64,000 bases of DNA, from the NCBI RefSeq assembly GCF_000026545.1, contig NC_011601.1; one strand, written 5' to 3'. The notes beneath the pieces are model-generated. The model worked only from the letters and a program-made list of their open reading frames with translations. It had not been told where the DNA came from and made no database searches. Below, in pieces: positions 3,439-22,494 of this stretch. Both the position numbers and the translations under genes were made by a program. Every line of letters starts with the position of its first letter. The first letter of the stretch is position 1. Source of the stretch: Escherichia coli O127:H6 str. E2348/69. Its GTDB lineage: Bacteria > Pseudomonadota > Gammaproteobacteria > Enterobacterales > Enterobacteriaceae.

Positions 3439-4474
3439 TCGCCTGATTTGTTGAGTTAGTGATCGCCGCCGCATTCTGGCGTGTTGCGACAGAATGGCGA
3501 CGCACTAACGTCGGCATAAAACAGTGGCTGGCACGAGGATCAATATTGTCTGCTGCCCCCTGCAAGGCCAGTTCGGTAGCTAATTTAGCCATTGAAGCAA
3601 TGGGATAACGCACCGTCGTTAATTGCGGGTCGGTGTAACGGGCGATGGGAATATCATCGAAACCAATGATTGAGAGATGTAACGGAATCGCAATGCCATT
3701 ATCTTTTAATGCTGTCAGTGCGCCAGCGGCCATATTGTCGTTATAAGCAAATACAGCGGTTAGTTGTAGGTTGCGCCCCAGCAGTTCAACCATCGCCGCC
3801 TCACCGCCCGGCATGTCCGGCGTGCCAGTGCCAATCCAGCTTTCCGGCGGAATAATATCCTGCTCTTTCAACGCACTCATCCAGCCTGCTTTACGCATGG
3901 CGTCATCTTCAATGCCGTGGCTGGAAGAAAGATAACCAATACGTTGATGACCGTTATTCAGCAACATGCGCGTCGCCATTCGGGCACCGCTGAGATTATC
4001 CAGGCAAACGCAACGATGGGCGTACCCCGGCACAACGCGGTTGATTAACACCATACCGGGAATGTTATCCATAAATTGTGCCAGTTCATCGTCACTCAAT
4101 GCTTTTGAGTGAACAATCAACGCATTACAACGCTGGCGAATTAACACCTCAATGGCGTGACGCTCTTTTTCCGCTTCATGATAGCTATTGCCGATTAGCA
4201 CGTATTTCTGATGCTGCTGGGCGACCAGATCCACCGCTTTTACCAGCGCGCCGAAAAACGTATCAGAAACGTCCATCACCACCACGCCAATGGTATCGCT
4301 AACCTGAGTTGCCAGCGCCTGGGCATTGGCGTTTGGCCGATAATCCAGCTCACTCACGGCTTTCATTACTGCTTCACGCGTATCGGCACTGACCAGCGTG
4401 CTGTTATTGAGCACCCGGGAAACCGTTGCCACAGAGACGCCAGCCTGACGCGCTACATCACGAATGGTGATCAT
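3434..4474 (-). CDS. galS: Galactose isorepressor GalS (LacI family)
   Basis: ORF 3434-4480 begins [26 protein letters not shown]; trimmed 2 codons to the recalled 346-aa protein starting MITIRDV; HTH plus periplasmic-binding fold. Confidence 0.9.
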
Positions 4475-4570
4475 ATTCACTACCTGTTATGAGATTGCAG
4501 TAAATGACTGCTCGCTGGCGGCTATTTTGTCAGCACTGAATACAGGACTTCGTGAATCGAGTCACAGCAA

Positions 4571-4584
4571 TGGAAACGGTTACA
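4571..4584. promoter_or_regulatory. Candidate gal-type operator upstream of galS
   Basis: tggaaacggttaca fits the GalR/GalS operator half-site pattern, about 95 bp upstream of the galS ATG. Confidence 0.35.
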
Positions 4585-4615
4585 GCCGTTTTGTTAACGA
4601 ATGTGATCCAGATCG

Positions 4616-5773
4616 TTATCTTGATGTTTTAGATATTGTCGGTCCGGCAGCACGCAAAGTTAACTGACGCCAGAGCCATTCCACCGGCCCCTGGCGGAAG
4701 TAACGCAGCCAGATAACAGAGAAGAAGATATTCGCCAGCCATACCGGAATAACAAACGCCAGCAGCTCCAGACGGTCAAACTGCATAAACAAACCGAGGT
4801 GGTAAAAAAGCGTAGTACAAATCAGCGTTTGCAATAGATAGTTGGTCAGTGCCATCCGTCCGACACAGGCGATTGCCAGCACCAGCTTAAAGCGGCTTAA
4901 TTGCGGCCAGAAGCCATAAAACAGCGACGCATAGCCAATCGCCTGAAACGGCGCACTCAGTTCCCGCGGCATCTGAAGTAAGAAGGCGCACCAACGATAC
5001 GCCCAGTCCAGTCGCCATTGCAGGGCGATGACAGGAAGGTTAATGATCATCCCAATCGCCACCAGCACAAAACCAGTACGACGATAGTGACGTAAGCTGA
5101 ACTGCCCTTTCAGCCAGCCACTGCGCATCAATGCGGCACCAATGAGCATCATCCCAGCCAGTTGCCAGCCATACTGTGCGCCCAGTGCCAGTAAACTGTT
5201 GCCAACACCATCGGCACGATTACTGATCGCTTCAACACCACCGTGAAGTTTCCAGTGCTTTTCATACAAAATAGCCGATGCATCAGGTGTCCAGGCGCGG
5301 CTGGTCTGGCTATCGGAAATCAACCCCAATAACAGCAAAACGCCAAGCCCCACCAGATAAAGCATGACGCCGGTATTAAACAGGCTTTTTACCGATGGCG
5401 CATCGCGCACCAGCCGCCAGCAGATTAAGCCCACCAGCCCGTAAGCCAGCAGAATATCGCCGTCCCAGAACAATAAACCGTGAATAAAGCCCAGCAAGAC
5501 TAACAGCGTTAACCGCGACTGGATCCATCGTCTGCCACGGGGCAGCAACATTTGCAGGCCCGCACCAAACAACAGCGCAAAAAGCGTGAGGAATTTCACC
5601 TGGCCGATGAGATCGAGAAATGCCCAGGTCCATGCATCCTGTGGCGTAATAGCGCCGTACCAGGCGGGATTGAGATAAGCCGCCTTTGGTAGCCCAAAGG
5701 CGCTGATGTTTAATAGCAGGATCCCCAGAATGGCGACGCCGCGAACAAAATCGAGCGTGACGTTGCGCTCCAC
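4616..5773 (-). CDS. yeiB: Inner membrane protein YeiB (DUF418 family)
   Basis: Frame 4616-5902 trimmed to a GTG start giving 385 aa (VERNVTLDFVRGVAILGILLLN...), the recalled YeiB length; polytopic membrane protein. Confidence 0.8.
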   Translation of the reverse strand: MERNVTLDFVRGVAILGILLLNISAFGLPKAAYLNPAWYGAITPQDAWTWAFLDLIGQVKFLTLFALLFGAGLQMLLPRGRRWIQSRLTLLVLLGFIHGLLFWDGDILLAYGLVGLICWRLVRDAPSVKSLFNTGVMLYLVGLGVLLLLGLISDSQTSRAWTPDASAILYEKHWKLHGGVEAISNRADGVGNSLLALGAQYGWQLAGMMLIGAALMRSGWLKGQFSLRHYRRTGFVLVAIGMIINLPVIALQWRLDWAYRWCAFLLQMPRELSAPFQAIGYASLFYGFWPQLSRFKLVLAIACVGRMALTNYLLQTLICTTLFYHLGLFMQFDRLELLAFVIPVWLANIFFSVIWLRYFRQGPVEWLWRQLTLRAAGPTISKTSR

Positions 5774-15648: not shown

Positions 15649-16899
15649 CTACGCTAAACCAATAAAGAATCCTGCAATAGTAGCACTCATCAGGTTAGAA
15701 AGTGTCGCCGCCGCCAGCGCGCGTAAACCAAGTTGGGCGATTTCCGGCGCACGGTGTGGCGCAACCGCAGAAAACGCCCCCACCACCACCCCGATAGAAC
15801 CAAAGTTAGCGAAACCGCACAACGCGAAAGAAATAATCGCCACGGTTTTAGCATCCAGAGTGCCACCCGTTTGCAGATATGGCGAGAAATTGAGATAAGC
15901 GACAAATTCATTGATCGCCAGCTTCTGCCCAATCAAACTCCCGGCAAGATTTGCATCACTCCAGTCAACCCCCATCACCCACGCCAATGGGGCCAACAGG
16001 TAACCTAAAATCGACTCCAGCGAAGCATGTTCAAAACCAAACCAGCCGCCAACACCGCCGATAATACCGTTAATCAACGCAATTATTGCAACAAATGCCA
16101 TCACCACTGTCGCCACACCTGCGGCGATTTTCAGCCCGGTCATTGCCCCTGTTGCAGCGGCTTCAATAATGCTCTTTGGCGGTGTTTCGGTGAAAGAGAG
16201 GTTATTAAAGGAAACCTGCGAAGATTCCGTAGCCGGGCTTAACAGGCGGGCAAACAAGATCCCACCGGGAATCGCCATTAACGATGCCGCCAGCAGATAT
16301 TCCACAGGCACGCCCAGTGCGGCGTAACCAATCATTGTCGAACCAGCAATCGAGGCCATACCGCTGCAAATCGCTGTAAATAATTCATTGCGATTCAGCC
16401 GATCGATAAAGGGTTTGACGATTGCCGGAATTTCGTTTTGCCCGAGGAAAATGGTAGTGACCGCGACGAATGACTCGATCTTGCTGATATTTAATGCTTT
16501 CTGGAAGATACCGCCGAGAATTCGAATTAAGATCCCCATCACACCGATGTAGTAGAGAATACTCACCAGCGCGGTGACGAAGATAATTGCCGGTAACACC
16601 CTGAAACCAAAGATAAATCCTGCGCCATCAAATAAGGTATCCATTTTCGGTCCGACCAGAGAACCGAAAATAAATGCGCTACCCGCGTCGCTGTACGCCA
16701 TCACTTTATGGACGCCAAAAGCGACTTTTTCTGCGACCCAACGCCCTGGCGGTAACCAAAGCATTATGCCGCCAATCACGACCTGTAACACTAACGCCGC
16801 GCCAACGGTACGCAGGCTGATCTTCTTTTTGTTTACTGACAGCAAAAACGCAATAGCCAGTAATACCACCATTCCCAGAACACTTCTCATGACATCCAT
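15649..16899 (-). CDS. nupX: NupC-family nucleoside transporter NupX
   Basis: 416-aa ORF; concentrative nucleoside transporter fold; close paralog of the psuT product in this window. Confidence 0.9.
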   Translation of the reverse strand: MDVMRSVLGMVVLLAIAFLLSVNKKKISLRTVGAALVLQVVIGGIMLWLPPGRWVAEKVAFGVHKVMAYSDAGSAFIFGSLVGPKMDTLFDGAGFIFGFRVLPAIIFVTALVSILYYIGVMGILIRILGGIFQKALNISKIESFVAVTTIFLGQNEIPAIVKPFIDRLNRNELFTAICSGMASIAGSTMIGYAALGVPVEYLLAASLMAIPGGILFARLLSPATESSQVSFNNLSFTETPPKSIIEAAATGAMTGLKIAAGVATVVMAFVAIIALINGIIGGVGGWFGFEHASLESILGYLLAPLAWVMGVDWSDANLAGSLIGQKLAINEFVAYLNFSPYLQTGGTLDAKTVAIISFALCGFANFGSIGVVVGAFSAVAPHRAPEIAQLGLRALAAATLSNLMSATIAGFFIGLA

Positions 16900-16998: not shown

Positions 16999-17940
16999 TT
17001 AATGGGTTTTTATGTAGCCGCGTACGCACTCTTCGACTAATCCCCAGAACCAGTCGGTATCAATAGTGATGCCGACTTTGGTATTGGCGGGCTTGCCAAG
17101 AACACCCAGCTCGTCGCAGACGGTACGCCCATAGCAAGGGCCACTGTTAACGTCCACTTCGACGTACATTTCCTGGGTTTTAATGCCATCAGGGTTAATC
17201 AAATAACCGATGCAGGTGGCGTCGTGCACCGGGCCGCCAGCCAGGCCGTAGTTTTCGAACTGCGTTTTGAGAGTGAAGTTCATGATGTCGCTGAACAGCT
17301 CTCCGGCAGGGCCGCCAGCCCTTTCCATCCGAGCAATCACATCCGGGGTGCAAACGGTCTGGTTGGTAAGATCGAGGCCCATCATCACTAATGGAACGCC
17401 GGAGGTGAACACCACACGTGCGGCCTCCGGGTCAGCAAAGATGTTGAACTCAGCAGATGGGGTGAAGTTGCCAGTACCATAAGCACCGCCCATCAGAACA
17501 ATTTCACGGATTTTCGGCAGGATCGCGGGTTGCATACGCATTGCCACCGCGATGTTTGACAACGGACCAACCGGCACCAGAGTGATATCGCCATCGCTTG
17601 CCATAAGGGTATCGATGATATATTTCACCGCATGAGTGTTTTCTGCCTGGCGGGTCAGCGGCTCGAATACCGGGCCATCCAGTCCGGTTTCACCGTGAAT
17701 ATTATCGGCAACAATTTGTTGACGCATAATGGGCTGCGGCATCCCCGCATAAACCGGAACATTAATCTCCAGTTTCTGGCAAACATTCAGGCCATTAATT
17801 AATGTTTTATCGAGGGTTTGATTACCCGCTACAATGGTGATACCTAATAAATCAATCGCCGGATGTTTCGCCGCCATCATTATAGCAATAGCATCATCAT
17901 GACCCGGATCACAATCCAGAATAATTTTTCTCTTTTCCAT
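16999..17940 (-). CDS. rihB: Pyrimidine-specific ribonucleoside hydrolase RihB
   Basis: 313-aa ORF with N-terminal DCDPGHDDA nucleoside-hydrolase motif; matches RihB (YeiK). Confidence 0.92.
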
Positions 17941-18108
17941 TGTTTATTTCCTCTGTTTCCAGTTGCGTTATTGTTTCTACAGCAAAGAAAATTCGATCGG
18001 GCCGATGATTGAATCTTAACAACAGCGTACGTATGCTAAATATGAGAAATCTCATAGCGGATAAACATCGTGAAAGAAATCCACAATAATGATCTTAAGC
18101 AGCAATTG

Positions 18109-18768
18109 ATGAGTGAATCTGCGTTTAAGGATTGCTTTTCAACGGATGTTTCAGCCGATACGCGGCTGTTTCATTTTTTAGCGCGTGACTACATTGTGCA
18201 GGAAGGGCAACAGCCGTCCTGGCTGTTTTACCTGACGCGAGGCCGCGCCAGGCTTTACGTCACGCTTGCTAATGGTCGCGTGTCGCTGATCGATTTCTTT
18301 GCCGCGCCCTGTTTTATTGGCGAGATTGAGTTAATCGACAAAGACCATGAACCGCGTGCAGTGCAGGCTATTGAAGAGTGTTGGTGCCTTGCGCTCCCTA
18401 TGAAGCATTACCGCCCGTTGTTATTAAACGACACGCTATTTTTACGAAAACTCTGCGTCACCTTAAGTCATAAAAATTATCGTAATATTGTTTCTTTAAC
18501 TCAGAATCAATCATTTCCGTTAGTGAATCGCCTGGCAGCTTTTATATTACTCTCGCAGGAAGGTGATCTTTATCACGAAAAGCATACGCAAGCGGCAGAG
18601 TATTTAGGCGTCTCTTATCGTCATCTTTTATATGTTCTCGCGCAATTCATTAATGACGGTTTATTAATTAAAAGCAAGAAAGGGTATCTCATTAAAAACA
18701 GAAAGCAGTTGTCAGGACTGGCGCTGGAGATGGACCCGGAGAATAAATTCTCCGGGATGATGCAGTAA
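18109..18768 (+). CDS. yeiL: CRP/FNR-family transcriptional regulator YeiL
   Basis: ORF 18070-18768 (232 aa) trimmed to [10 protein letters not shown]... giving the recalled 219 aa; cNMP-binding-like domain plus C-terminal HTH; start could be 18070. Confidence 0.85.
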
Positions 18769-22046: not shown

Positions 22047-22289
22047 AGCACGCCCCCTGGCAATAAATTGCCAACGAAGAAATTGGGTAAAATAGTCATT
22101 ACAGTCAATAAGACTATTAGAGCACGTGTTCAGATTTAAACACATGTTCATAATAAGCATGTTTAACGTAATGTAAATCGATCAGAAAAAACGAAATCGG
22201 CCAGATATGAAGGCGGTCACAAAATTTGTCTATTTATGCAGCAACAAAAGAGAAAGTTGTGATGTGTAACACACAATATGGCAGGCAAG

Positions 22290-22444: not shown

Positions 22445-22456
22445 ATTTTGCGTTTG

Positions 22457-22494
22457 TCATCATCGGGGCAGAGATGTCTCAGCCCCGATGATGA
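22457..22494. other. Perfect 13-bp-stem hairpin immediately 3' of fruA
   Basis: tcatcatcggggc (22457-22469) pairs perfectly with gccccgatgatga (22482-22494), 12-nt loop; no adjacent T-tract so not a classical intrinsic terminator. Confidence 0.5.

What the first reader, a model, noticed from the sequence alone, without database searches (positions are those of the whole stretch)
18041..18056. 16-bp perfect palindrome in the divergent rihB-yeiL control region
tatgaga-aa-tctcata is a perfect 7-2-7 palindrome located between the divergently transcribed rihB-nupX operon and yeiL, about 55 bp upstream of the annotated yeiL start. It does not match CRP, FNR or NarL consensus sites. A perfect dyad at this position is a plausible operator for a dimeric regulator (YeiL itself, or a nucleoside-responsive repressor) controlling both promoters.
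Basis: seen in the sequence. Interest (0 to 1): 0.3.

Follow-up and report, generated by a model that had tools for sequence, protein, structure and literature searches.

The report
Conserved YeiL operator between rihB and yeiL
The 16-bp inverted repeat between the E. coli rihB and yeiL genes is very probably a real protein-binding control site, since its core is unchanged next to yeiL-type regulator genes from E. coli to Enterococcus; it most likely docks the YeiL regulator and ties that poorly understood protein to nucleoside-breakdown genes.

Summary
The dyad TATGAGA-AA-TCTCATA is exactly at 18041-18056. A 7-2-7 repeat alone is not remarkable: the window holds 11, against about 5 in shuffles. 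Its conservation is what matters. In 15 non-redundant Enterobacterales intergenic regions, 18042-18054 is invariant. Only 2 of 72 flanking columns are invariant, and both are the -11 positions of two predicted -10 hexamers. The same box, TA(T/G)GAGA-NN-TCTC(A/C)TA, sits just upstream of yeiL homologues in three Enterococcus species. It also occurs upstream of 6 of 7 metagenomic homologues of 40-47% identity, sometimes as a perfect 16-bp palindrome. The divergent neighbour is usually a nucleoside hydrolase. The box follows yeiL, not rihB. E. coli rihA and rihC lack it, and one box-bearing homologue is paired with an MFS transporter instead.

Best reading: it is the operator of YeiL, a CRP/FNR-family regulator. 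It is centred about -42 from a predicted rihB promoter that has no -35 element, which is the class II activator position, and it lies over +1 of the predicted yeiL promoter. No binding or transcription-start data were available.

The true yeiL start is GTG 18070, 13 nt after the dyad, not the K-12 ATG at 18110. This is a new member of a known kind, of moderate interest.

The parts
18041..18056 (.). 16-bp dyad TATGAGA-AA-TCTCATA, the proposed YeiL box. Family consensus: TA(T/G)GAGA-NN-TCTC(A/C)TA.
   Evidence: sequence; conservation and variants.
18042..18054 (.). Core ATGAGAAATCTCA, invariant in 15 non-redundant enterobacterial sequences. GAGA/TCTC is invariant in all 11 distinct box variants across phyla.
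18032..18037 (+). Predicted -10 hexamer TATGCT of the yeiL promoter. Its -11 A (18033) is one of only two invariant flank columns. It ends 3 nt before the dyad, so the predicted start of transcription (about 18044-18045) lies inside the left arm.
   Evidence: The same -10 was called by the promoter scan in Enterococcus L022. This is an inference; no transcription-start data.
18009..18014 (+). Predicted -35 hexamer TTGAAT of the yeiL promoter, with a 17-bp spacer. It is also the left half of an FNR-like TTGAA-N4-AACAA (18009-18022).
   Evidence: Inference.
18013..18018 (-). Predicted -10 hexamer of the rihB promoter: TAAGAT in Escherichia, TATGAT/TATAAT elsewhere. Its -11 A (18017) is the other invariant flank column. 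No -35 element is present. The predicted start is about 18006, which puts the dyad centre at about -42.5.
   Evidence: Inference.
18059..18061 (+). Shine-Dalgarno GGA, 8 nt before GTG 18070. It is GGGAA in other Enterobacterales and GGAGG in Firmicutes homologues at the same place.
18070..18768 (+). yeiL, 232 aa with a GTG start. CRP/FNR-family regulator with cNMP_binding and HTH_Crp_2 domains.
16999..17940 (-). rihB, pyrimidine ribonucleoside hydrolase. The divergent presumed target.
15649..16899 (-). nupX, nucleoside transporter, downstream of rihB in the same orientation.

Best explanation
The dyad is the operator ('YeiL box') of the adjacent CRP/FNR-family regulator YeiL. It sits in a compact pair of back-to-back promoters. 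A YeiL dimer would bind the two GAGA-containing half-sites, TA(T/G)GAGA, which lie 2 bp apart.

On the rihB-nupX side, the box is centred about 42 bp upstream of the predicted transcription start of a promoter that has a -10 element but no -35 element. This is the geometry of class II activation by CRP/FNR proteins, so YeiL would switch on the otherwise silent nucleoside hydrolase/transporter operon.

On the yeiL side, the same bound dimer covers the predicted +1 to +12 of the yeiL promoter, just ahead of the ribosome-binding site. It would therefore also autoregulate yeiL, and this geometry predicts negative autoregulation.

What is shown: the sequence, its extreme and symmetric conservation, its strict linkage to yeiL, and its fixed spacing to conserved -10-like hexamers. 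What is inferred: that YeiL is the binding protein, the start sites, and the sign of regulation.
For: (1) All 18 orthologous loci carry rihB divergent from yeiL across an IGR of about 130 bp. They have ATGAGAAATCTCA(T/C) in the same place and orientation. The 13 core columns are invariant, against 2 of 72 flank columns.

(2) Enterococcus yeiL homologues (57-59% identity) have TATGAGAAATCTCATA, TATGAGAATTCTCACA or the perfect palindrome TATGAGAATTCTCATA at the same distance from the start codon, divergent from a RihB-like hydrolase.

(3) Six of 7 homologues of 40-47% identity carry the box. Two of them show the symmetric double change TAGGAGA..TCTCCTA. The central 2 nt vary freely (AA/AT/TA/TT). 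GC content of these contigs runs from 38 to 67%.

(4) The box stays with yeiL when the partner gene is an MFS transporter (L029) or a nucleobase permease (L035). It is absent from the rihA, rihC and deoC promoters.

(5) The YeiL recognition helix GVSYRHLL is invariant among homologues. YeiL has cNMP_binding and HTH_Crp_2 domains.

(6) In all 17 box-bearing loci examined, a minus-strand TANNNT hexamer lies at a fixed offset (15 at -28, 2 at -27). The -35 matches at most 3 of 6. This puts the box centre at -42.5 or -41.5.

(7) A plus-strand -10 ends 3 nt before the box in E. coli, Enterococcus, L027 and L035.

(8) MG1655 annotates YeiL as a DNA-binding transcriptional activator. RegulonDB is reported to hold one YeiL site and one target (PMC9308461).
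Against: No binding, footprint, ChIP or transcription-start data could be obtained. The primary YeiL paper, Anjum et al. 2000, is not held, and three transcription-start supplements gave nothing.

From my memory of that paper, yeiL is positively autoregulated, with a transcript start 22 bp upstream of the then-annotated ATG. That would be about 18088, placing the dyad near -39.5. This conflicts with the autorepression geometry predicted here.

The YeiL recognition helix (SYRHL) lacks the R-E..R residues that read TGA in CRP and FNR, so family analogy cannot predict the site.

The plus-strand -35 and the minus-strand -10 overlap, so conservation cannot separate them. One 40% homologue (L031) and two more distant ones (L032, L033) lack the box upstream.

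No second box was found in the window or in about 314 kb of loci, so there is no regulon evidence.
Confidence: 0.6

Rival explanations
1. YeiL binds the box but acts purely as a repressor of both divergent promoters. It would occlude the -35 region of P_rihB and the +1 of P_yeiL, and rihB would be silent in K-12 because YeiL holds it off until a signal releases it.
For: The box overlaps the predicted +1 of P_yeiL and the -35 region of P_rihB. rihB is reported as physiologically silent (PMC2898832). Divergent regulator-target pairs with one shared operator are often repressor systems (general knowledge).
Against: The rihB-side promoter has no -35 element in any lineage (at most 3 of 6 matches). 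The box-to--10 spacing is fixed to within 1 bp even where the plus-strand -10 moves (L029, L030, L036). A repressor has no need of such fixed spacing. MG1655 annotation calls YeiL an activator.
Confidence: 0.17
2. The dyad is the class II activator site for yeiL itself. This assumes the transcript start I recall as reported, about 18088, which centres the dyad near -39.5 and gives positive autoregulation. rihB control would be incidental.
For: My recollection of Anjum et al. 2000 is of positive autoregulation and a start 22 bp before the ATG now annotated at 18110. The 'activator' annotation agrees. RegulonDB lists yeiL as the only YeiL target.
Against: A start at 18088 lies inside the conserved coding extension. 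MKEIxNDxLKQQL is conserved with third-position changes, and the 18110 ATG is not conserved outside Escherichia. No conserved -10 element lies at about 18076-18082. A centre at -39.5 is off the usual -41.5 phase. The paper itself could not be read.
Confidence: 0.08
3. The dyad is an operator for a different dimeric regulator: CRP, DeoR, CytR or an unknown nucleoside-responsive repressor.
For: The E. coli copy matches 8 of 10 bases of the CRP core TGTGA-N6-TCACA (sequence). It matches 11 of 16 bases of the deo operator TGTTAGAATTCTAACA, found upstream of deoC. rihA and rihC are catabolite-controlled (PMC2898832).
Against: The TGA of the CRP core is not conserved; it is GGA in L028, L029, L030 and L036. 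The inner GAGA/TCTC, which would lie in CRP's non-specific spacer, is invariant. The box persists in Enterococcus and other low- and high-GC contigs, where yeiL is the only gene always beside it. The deo operator has 4 mismatches to the box consensus. A genome-wide in vitro CRP footprint table lists a site inside yeiL but none at the dyad.
Confidence: 0.08
4. The dyad acts as RNA. It would form a small 5'-UTR hairpin just ahead of the ribosome-binding site that sets yeiL mRNA stability or translation.
For: It lies 13-15 nt before the start codon in almost all homologues. A 6-bp stem with a 4-nt loop can be drawn. One variant pair changes on both sides, UA to GC.
Against: The fold is weak: -5.4 kcal/mol for the whole 38-nt fold, which includes a second hairpin, with z = -1.6. 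Covariation is no better than shuffles (149-178 of 500). Seven cells break outer pairs against one compensatory change. The loop-proximal bases are invariant. There is no Rfam match. The conserved -10 element predicts a start inside the left arm, so the full stem would not be transcribed.
Confidence: 0.04
5. Chance palindrome with no function.
For: Perfect 7-bp-arm inverted repeats are common: 11 with a 2-nt spacer in this window and about 5 expected.
Against: There are 13 invariant columns across about 14 genera, while only 2 of 72 flank columns are invariant. The box recurs across phyla and across 38-67% GC.
Confidence: 0.01

Closest known systems
CRP and FNR binding sites at class II promoters (TGTGA-N6-TCACA; TTGAT-N4-ATCAA, centred near -41.5)
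   Same: The adjacent regulator belongs to the same protein family. The site is a two-fold symmetric site of about 16 bp. The E. coli copy contains TGA-N6-TCA. It is predicted to be centred at -42.5 or -41.5 of a promoter with a -10 element and no -35 element.
   Different: The conserved determinant is (T/G)GAGA-N2-TCTC(A/C), reaching to 1.5 bp from the dyad centre. TGA is replaced by GGA in several homologues. YeiL's recognition helix is SYRHL rather than RE..R or E..SR (the CRP/FNR residues are from established knowledge). Only one site is known per genome region, not a global regulon.
The YeiL autoregulatory site recorded in RegulonDB, from Anjum, Green & Guest 2000, Microbiology 146:3157
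   Same: Same regulator and same promoter region. RegulonDB is said to hold exactly one YeiL site and one target. The dyad is the only strongly conserved dyad in that region, so it may be the same site.
   Different: I could not read the paper or RegulonDB, so identity is unverified. The FNR-like TTGAA-N4-AACAA at 18009-18022 is an alternative candidate for the recorded site. The link to rihB-nupX, the cross-phylum box and the revised start codon are not, to my knowledge, part of that record.
DeoR operators of the deo operon (TGTTAGAATTCTAACA and TGTTAGAATACTAACA)
   Same: Both are 16-bp dyads with an AGAA-TCT centre, and both lie at nucleoside-catabolism genes. Identity is 11 of 16, or 12 of 16 for the Enterococcus gilvus form.
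   Different: Positions 2 and 4 of each half-site differ, and G4/C13 is invariant in the YeiL box. The deo operator has 4 mismatches to the box consensus. DeoR is an unrelated protein family, and no deoR gene accompanies the box.
FLP (FNR-like protein) sites of Lactobacillus casei
   Same: FLP is a CRP/FNR-family member with redox-sensitive cysteines whose site departs from the FNR consensus (from memory; cited as context in PMC3590769).
   Different: The sequence is different. I recall it as CCTGA-N4-TCAGG. Not tested here.

Membership tests
CRP/FNR family transcription factor (the protein YeiL) | N-terminal cNMP-binding-like beta-roll domain | tested here: met
   PF00027, 52.9 bits against a cut-off of 27.5. 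Weak PDB matches to CRP.
CRP/FNR family transcription factor (the protein YeiL) | C-terminal Crp-type helix-turn-helix | tested here: met
   PF13545, 27.7 bits against a cut-off of 27. NCBIfam NF007707 'YeiL', 419 bits.
CRP/FNR-type DNA site | Two-fold symmetric inverted repeat of about 14-22 bp | tested here: met
   7-2-7 dyad. It is a perfect 16-bp palindrome in E. gilvus and L036.
CRP/FNR-type DNA site | Conserved TGA-N6-TCA core with a variable 6-bp centre | tested here: not met
   Present in the E. coli copy, but TGA becomes GGA in 4 homologues. Four of the 6 'spacer' bases (GA..TC) are invariant.
Class II activator-dependent promoter (rihB side) | Site centred near -41.5 relative to the transcription start | tested here: inconclusive
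   Centred at -42.5 (15 loci) or -41.5 (2 loci) relative to a start inferred from a conserved TANNNT hexamer. No experimental start site.
Class II activator-dependent promoter (rihB side) | Recognisable -10 element with a poor or absent -35 element | tested here: met
   The -10 matches 3-6 of 6, with A2 and T6 in all 17 loci. The best -35 matches at most 3 of 6. The scan finds no full minus-strand promoter.
Class II activator-dependent promoter (rihB side) | Regulator-dependent transcription | not testable with these tools
   Needs yeiL mutant and reporter or in vitro transcription data.
Autoregulatory operator | Site lies within the regulator's own promoter or leader, and is linked to the regulator gene across genomes | tested here: met
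   The site lies between the predicted -10 element and the SD in all box-bearing loci. It is linked to yeiL regardless of the partner gene.
Autoregulatory operator | The regulator binds the site | not testable with these tools
   No EMSA, ChIP or footprint available. The primary paper is not held.
DeoR operator | Match to TGTTAGAA-TTCTAACA | tested here: not met
   11 of 16 bases match. The deo operators have 4 mismatches to the box consensus. The invariant G4/C13 differs.
Structured RNA element (5'-UTR hairpin) | Stable fold with compensatory changes, or a known RNA family | tested here: not met
   z = -1.6. Covariation equals shuffles. No Rfam hit.

The most novel reading that the evidence does not exclude
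YeiL is not primarily a 'nitrogen-starvation' regulator. It would be the dedicated local switch of a horizontally mobile nucleoside/nucleobase-scavenging module: a hydrolase plus a transporter, with yeiL divergent from them. The module has moved between Firmicutes and Enterobacterales together with its promoter architecture. It uses its own 16-bp box, TA(T/G)GAGA-NN-TCTC(A/C)TA, which differs from every characterised CRP/FNR consensus. The long-standing 'silent' state of E. coli rihB would then reflect the absence of YeiL's activating signal.
Probability: 0.45. Interest if true: 0.55.

Novelty: new member of a known kind. Interest (0 to 1): 0.4.

Why it matters
YeiL is the third CRP/FNR paralogue of E. 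coli. After 25 years it still has no defined DNA motif, signal or regulon beyond itself, and rihB is a textbook 'silent' gene.

A box conserved across phyla gives a concrete motif to test. Its fixed position relative to a hydrolase/transporter promoter that lacks a -35 element gives a concrete target operon.

The comparison also shows that the K-12 reference start codon of yeiL is probably 13 codons too short. That affects any expression construct or promoter fusion designed from it. It is still one local transcription-factor site of a familiar type, so its importance is limited to specialists.

Tried and rejected
1. Reading the dyad as a canonical CRP/FNR site (TGA-N6-TCA). This is attractive for E. 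coli, with 8 of 10 matches to CRP. I rejected it as the conserved determinant because TGA becomes GGA in four homologues and the inner 'spacer' bases are invariant.

2. DeoR operator. The deo operators were confirmed in MG1655, but they have 4 mismatches to the box consensus.

3. RNA hairpin or known RNA family. The fold is weak, there is no covariation, and there is no Rfam hit.

4. A small upstream ORF starting at the ATG inside the dyad. Rejected because all positions are invariant, including third codon positions, and there is no SD.

5. Other copies. None with up to 2 mismatches in the 64-kb window or the loci. rihA, rihC and deoC upstream regions are negative.

6. Literature. Anjum et al. 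2000 and Thomason et al. 2015 are not held. Transcription-start supplements of three papers gave nothing for this locus. No held paper contains the box sequence in a relevant context or links nupX and rihB regulation. The first 'yeiL' search was swamped by misspellings of 'yield'.

Full report
OBSERVATION

The window is E. coli. It is not K-12; the intergenic region is 100% identical to strain Combat2C1. At 18041-18056 the sequence is TATGAGA-AA-TCTCATA, with 7-nt arms that are perfectly complementary around an AA spacer. It lies between rihB (16999-17940, minus strand, followed by nupX at 15649-16899) and yeiL on the plus strand.

As a bare pattern it is not remarkable. The window holds 11 perfect 7-N2-7 repeats against 5.0 +/- 2.0 in Markov-1 shuffles. 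For spacers of 0-6 nt it holds 56 against 32 +/- 6.

WHERE yeiL REALLY STARTS

MG1655 annotates the ATG at window 18110, giving 219 aa. RefSeq PGAP uses the GTG at 18070, giving 232 aa.

- The NCBIfam YeiL model aligns from residue 1 of the long form.
- In 18 orthologous loci and in Enterococcus, the N-terminal MKEIxNDxLKQQL is conserved, with third-codon-position changes and an ATG or GTG at that place.
- The K-12 ATG codon is not conserved outside Escherichia.

The dyad therefore ends 13 nt before the real start codon, with a GGA Shine-Dalgarno in between.

CONSERVATION

A scan of one genome per species with YeiL returned 18 loci. They came from Escherichia spp., Citrobacter, Buttiauxella, Phytobacter, Entomohabitans, Superficieibacter, Klebsiella spallanzanii, Silvania, Cedecea, Ewingella, Hafnia and others.

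- All have rihB divergent from yeiL across about 130 bp.
- All carry ATGAGAAATCTCA(T/C) in the same orientation and register.
- In 15 non-redundant sequences anchored on the motif, columns 18042-18054 are invariant. Flank identity to E. coli falls to 31-75%.
- Only two of 72 flank columns are invariant: 18017 and 18033.
- Within E. coli, the 36-mer around the dyad is 100% identical in 5359 of 5401 records and is single-copy.

BEYOND THE ENTEROBACTERALES

YeiL has 57-59% identical homologues in Enterococcus. Each is divergent from a hydrolase that is 75-76% identical to RihB. Their intergenic regions carry one of three forms, again 14-15 nt before the start codon:
- TATGAGAAATCTCATA, identical to E. 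coli
- TATGAGAATTCTCACA
- TATGAGAATTCTCATA, a perfect 16-bp palindrome

An exhaustive profile search gave more distant homologues. Of seven at 40-47% identity whose contigs I could fetch, six carry the box just upstream:

| Locus | Box | Divergent gene |
|---|---|---|
| L027 | TATGAGATATCTCACA | not on the contig |
| L028 | TAGGAGATTTCTCCTA | nucleoside hydrolase |
| L029 | TAGGAGATATCTCATA | MFS transporter |
| L030 | TAGGAGATTTCTCATA | nucleoside hydrolase |
| L035 | TATGAGATATCTCACA | xanthine/uracil permease |
| L036 | TAGGAGATATCTCCTA | nucleoside hydrolase |

L031 (40%), L032 (36%) and L033 (32%) lack the box.

- GAGA-N2-TCTC occurs once per locus at that place. There are 5 other hits in 314 kb, about the number expected by chance.
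- The consensus is TA(T/G)GAGA-NN-TCTC(A/C)TA. GAGA/TCTC is invariant, the central two bases are free, and the T-to-G change appears on both arms in two lineages.
- The contigs range from 38 to 67% GC.

WHAT THE BOX IS LINKED TO

yeiL is the only gene always beside the box.
- The box persists when the partner gene is an MFS transporter or a nucleobase permease.
- It is absent from the E. coli rihA, rihC and deoC upstream regions, where the best matches have at least 4 mismatches.
- It has no second copy in the 64-kb window, which includes the psu and fru operons.
- The YeiL recognition helix GVSYRHLL is invariant across the homologues.

This is the basis for assigning the site to YeiL. It is an inference from co-occurrence, not a demonstration of binding.

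PROMOTER ANATOMY (INFERRED)

On the plus strand, TTGAAT (18009-18014), a 17-bp spacer and TATGCT (18032-18037) form a sigma-70-like promoter.
- Its -11 A is the invariant column 18033.
- The -10 element ends 3 nt before the box in E. coli, Enterococcus, L027 and L035.
- The scan tool calls the same promoter in E. malodoratus.
- The predicted yeiL start, about 18044-18045, is therefore inside the left arm.

On the minus strand, a TANNNT hexamer (TAAGAT in Escherichia; TATGAT, TATAAT or TACAAT elsewhere) lies at a fixed offset from the box in all 17 box-bearing loci examined: 15 at -28 and 2 at -27.
- Its -11 A is the other invariant column, 18017.
- The best -35 matches at most 3 of 6.
- This puts the box centre at -42.5 or -41.5 of the divergent promoter, the position from which CRP/FNR proteins activate class II promoters (established knowledge).
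- The spacing holds even in loci where the plus-strand -10 has moved (L029, L030, L036). This argues that the box-to-rihB-promoter phase is the constrained one.

MECHANISM PROPOSED

A YeiL dimer on the box would activate the rihB-nupX promoter, which lacks a -35 element. It would also sit over +1 of its own promoter and autoregulate. rihB is reported to be physiologically silent in K-12 (PMC2898832). That fits a promoter needing an activator whose signal is absent in the laboratory.

CONFLICTS AND GAPS

- The primary YeiL paper (Anjum, Green & Guest 2000) is not held.
- From memory, it reports positive autoregulation and a transcript start 22 bp before the then-annotated ATG, at about 18088. 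That would centre the dyad near -39.5.
- MG1655 calls YeiL an activator, and RegulonDB is said to list one YeiL site and one target.
- I cannot tell whether that recorded site is this dyad or the FNR-like TTGAA-N4-AACAA at 18009-18022.
- A start at 18088 would lie inside the conserved coding extension, so I give that reading a low weight, but it is not excluded.
- No transcription-start data could be found.

RIVALS

- CRP: the E. coli copy matches 8 of 10 bases of the CRP core. However, the TGA is not conserved, the 'spacer' bases are invariant, and the box occurs in Enterococcus. An in vitro CRP footprint table lists a site inside yeiL (window 18562-18577) but none at the dyad.
- DeoR: the deo operators TGTTAGAATTCTAACA and TGTTAGAATACTAACA are present upstream of deoC. 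They share 11 of 16 bases with the dyad but differ at the invariant G4/C13.
- RNA hairpin: the fold is weak (z = -1.6), there is no Rfam match, and covariation is no better than shuffles, with 7 pair-breaking cells against 1 compensatory change.
- Chance: excluded by the conservation.

VERDICT

The real start codon is 13 nt away. The E. coli copy does look CRP-like, although that is not what is conserved. The likely logic is class II-type activation of rihB-nupX plus autoregulation.

This is a new, well-defined member of a known kind: a transcription-factor operator. Its motif is unlike the canonical CRP/FNR sites. Interest is moderate at 0.4.

Noticed in passing
window 18070-18112: The K-12 MG1655 reference annotates yeiL from the ATG at 18110 (219 aa). 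Conservation, NCBIfam NF007707 and PGAP support the GTG at 18070 (232 aa). The first 13 codons are conserved at protein level from E. coli to Enterococcus.
   Followed up: yes
window 22058-22073: Another perfect 7-2-7 inverted repeat, TGGCAATAAATTGCCA, lies 12 nt upstream of the psuK start codon (minus strand, 22046), directly ahead of a GGGGG ribosome-binding site. It may be an operator for the pseudouridine operon psuKGT.
   Followed up: no
window 18562-18577 (minus strand): CGTGATAAAGATCACC inside the yeiL coding region is the intragenic CRP site listed at MG1655 2255813 in the Footprint-seq preprint (PMC12871828).
   Followed up: partly
window 18009-18022: TTGAATCTTAACAA matches 8 of 10 bases of the FNR consensus TTGAT-N4-ATCAA. 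It overlaps the predicted -35 of the yeiL promoter and the predicted -10 of the rihB promoter. It may be the FNR site behind the FNR repression of yeiL that I recall as reported.
   Followed up: partly
window 18738-18753: Perfect 7-2-7 inverted repeat GGAGAATAAATTCTCC inside the last codons of yeiL (PENKFSG), about 80 bp from the convergent psuT stop.
   Followed up: no
L022, L024, L025 (Enterococcus), about 3945-5690: The Enterococcus hydrolase is 75-76% identical to E. coli RihB and YeiL is 58-59% identical. The promoter hexamers and the box are at identical spacing. This points to cross-phylum horizontal transfer of the whole rihB-yeiL module, including its control region.
   Followed up: partly
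L032 2960-2990: A 36%-identical YeiL homologue, divergent from a nucleoside hydrolase, lacks the dyad. It has two direct copies of ATAGGATA 15 bp apart, which resemble the TAGGAGA half-site. This may be a rearranged site.
   Followed up: no
L001 708-1959 (strain Combat2C1): nupX is annotated as frameshifted in the strain whose intergenic region is 100% identical to the window, whereas the window's nupX ORF is intact (416 aa).
   Followed up: no
window 22455-22492: A long GC-rich inverted repeat, CATCGGGGCAGAGATGTCTCAGCCCCGATG, appeared as a chance GAGA-N2-TCTC hit. It looks like an intrinsic-terminator or REP-type stem.
   Followed up: no
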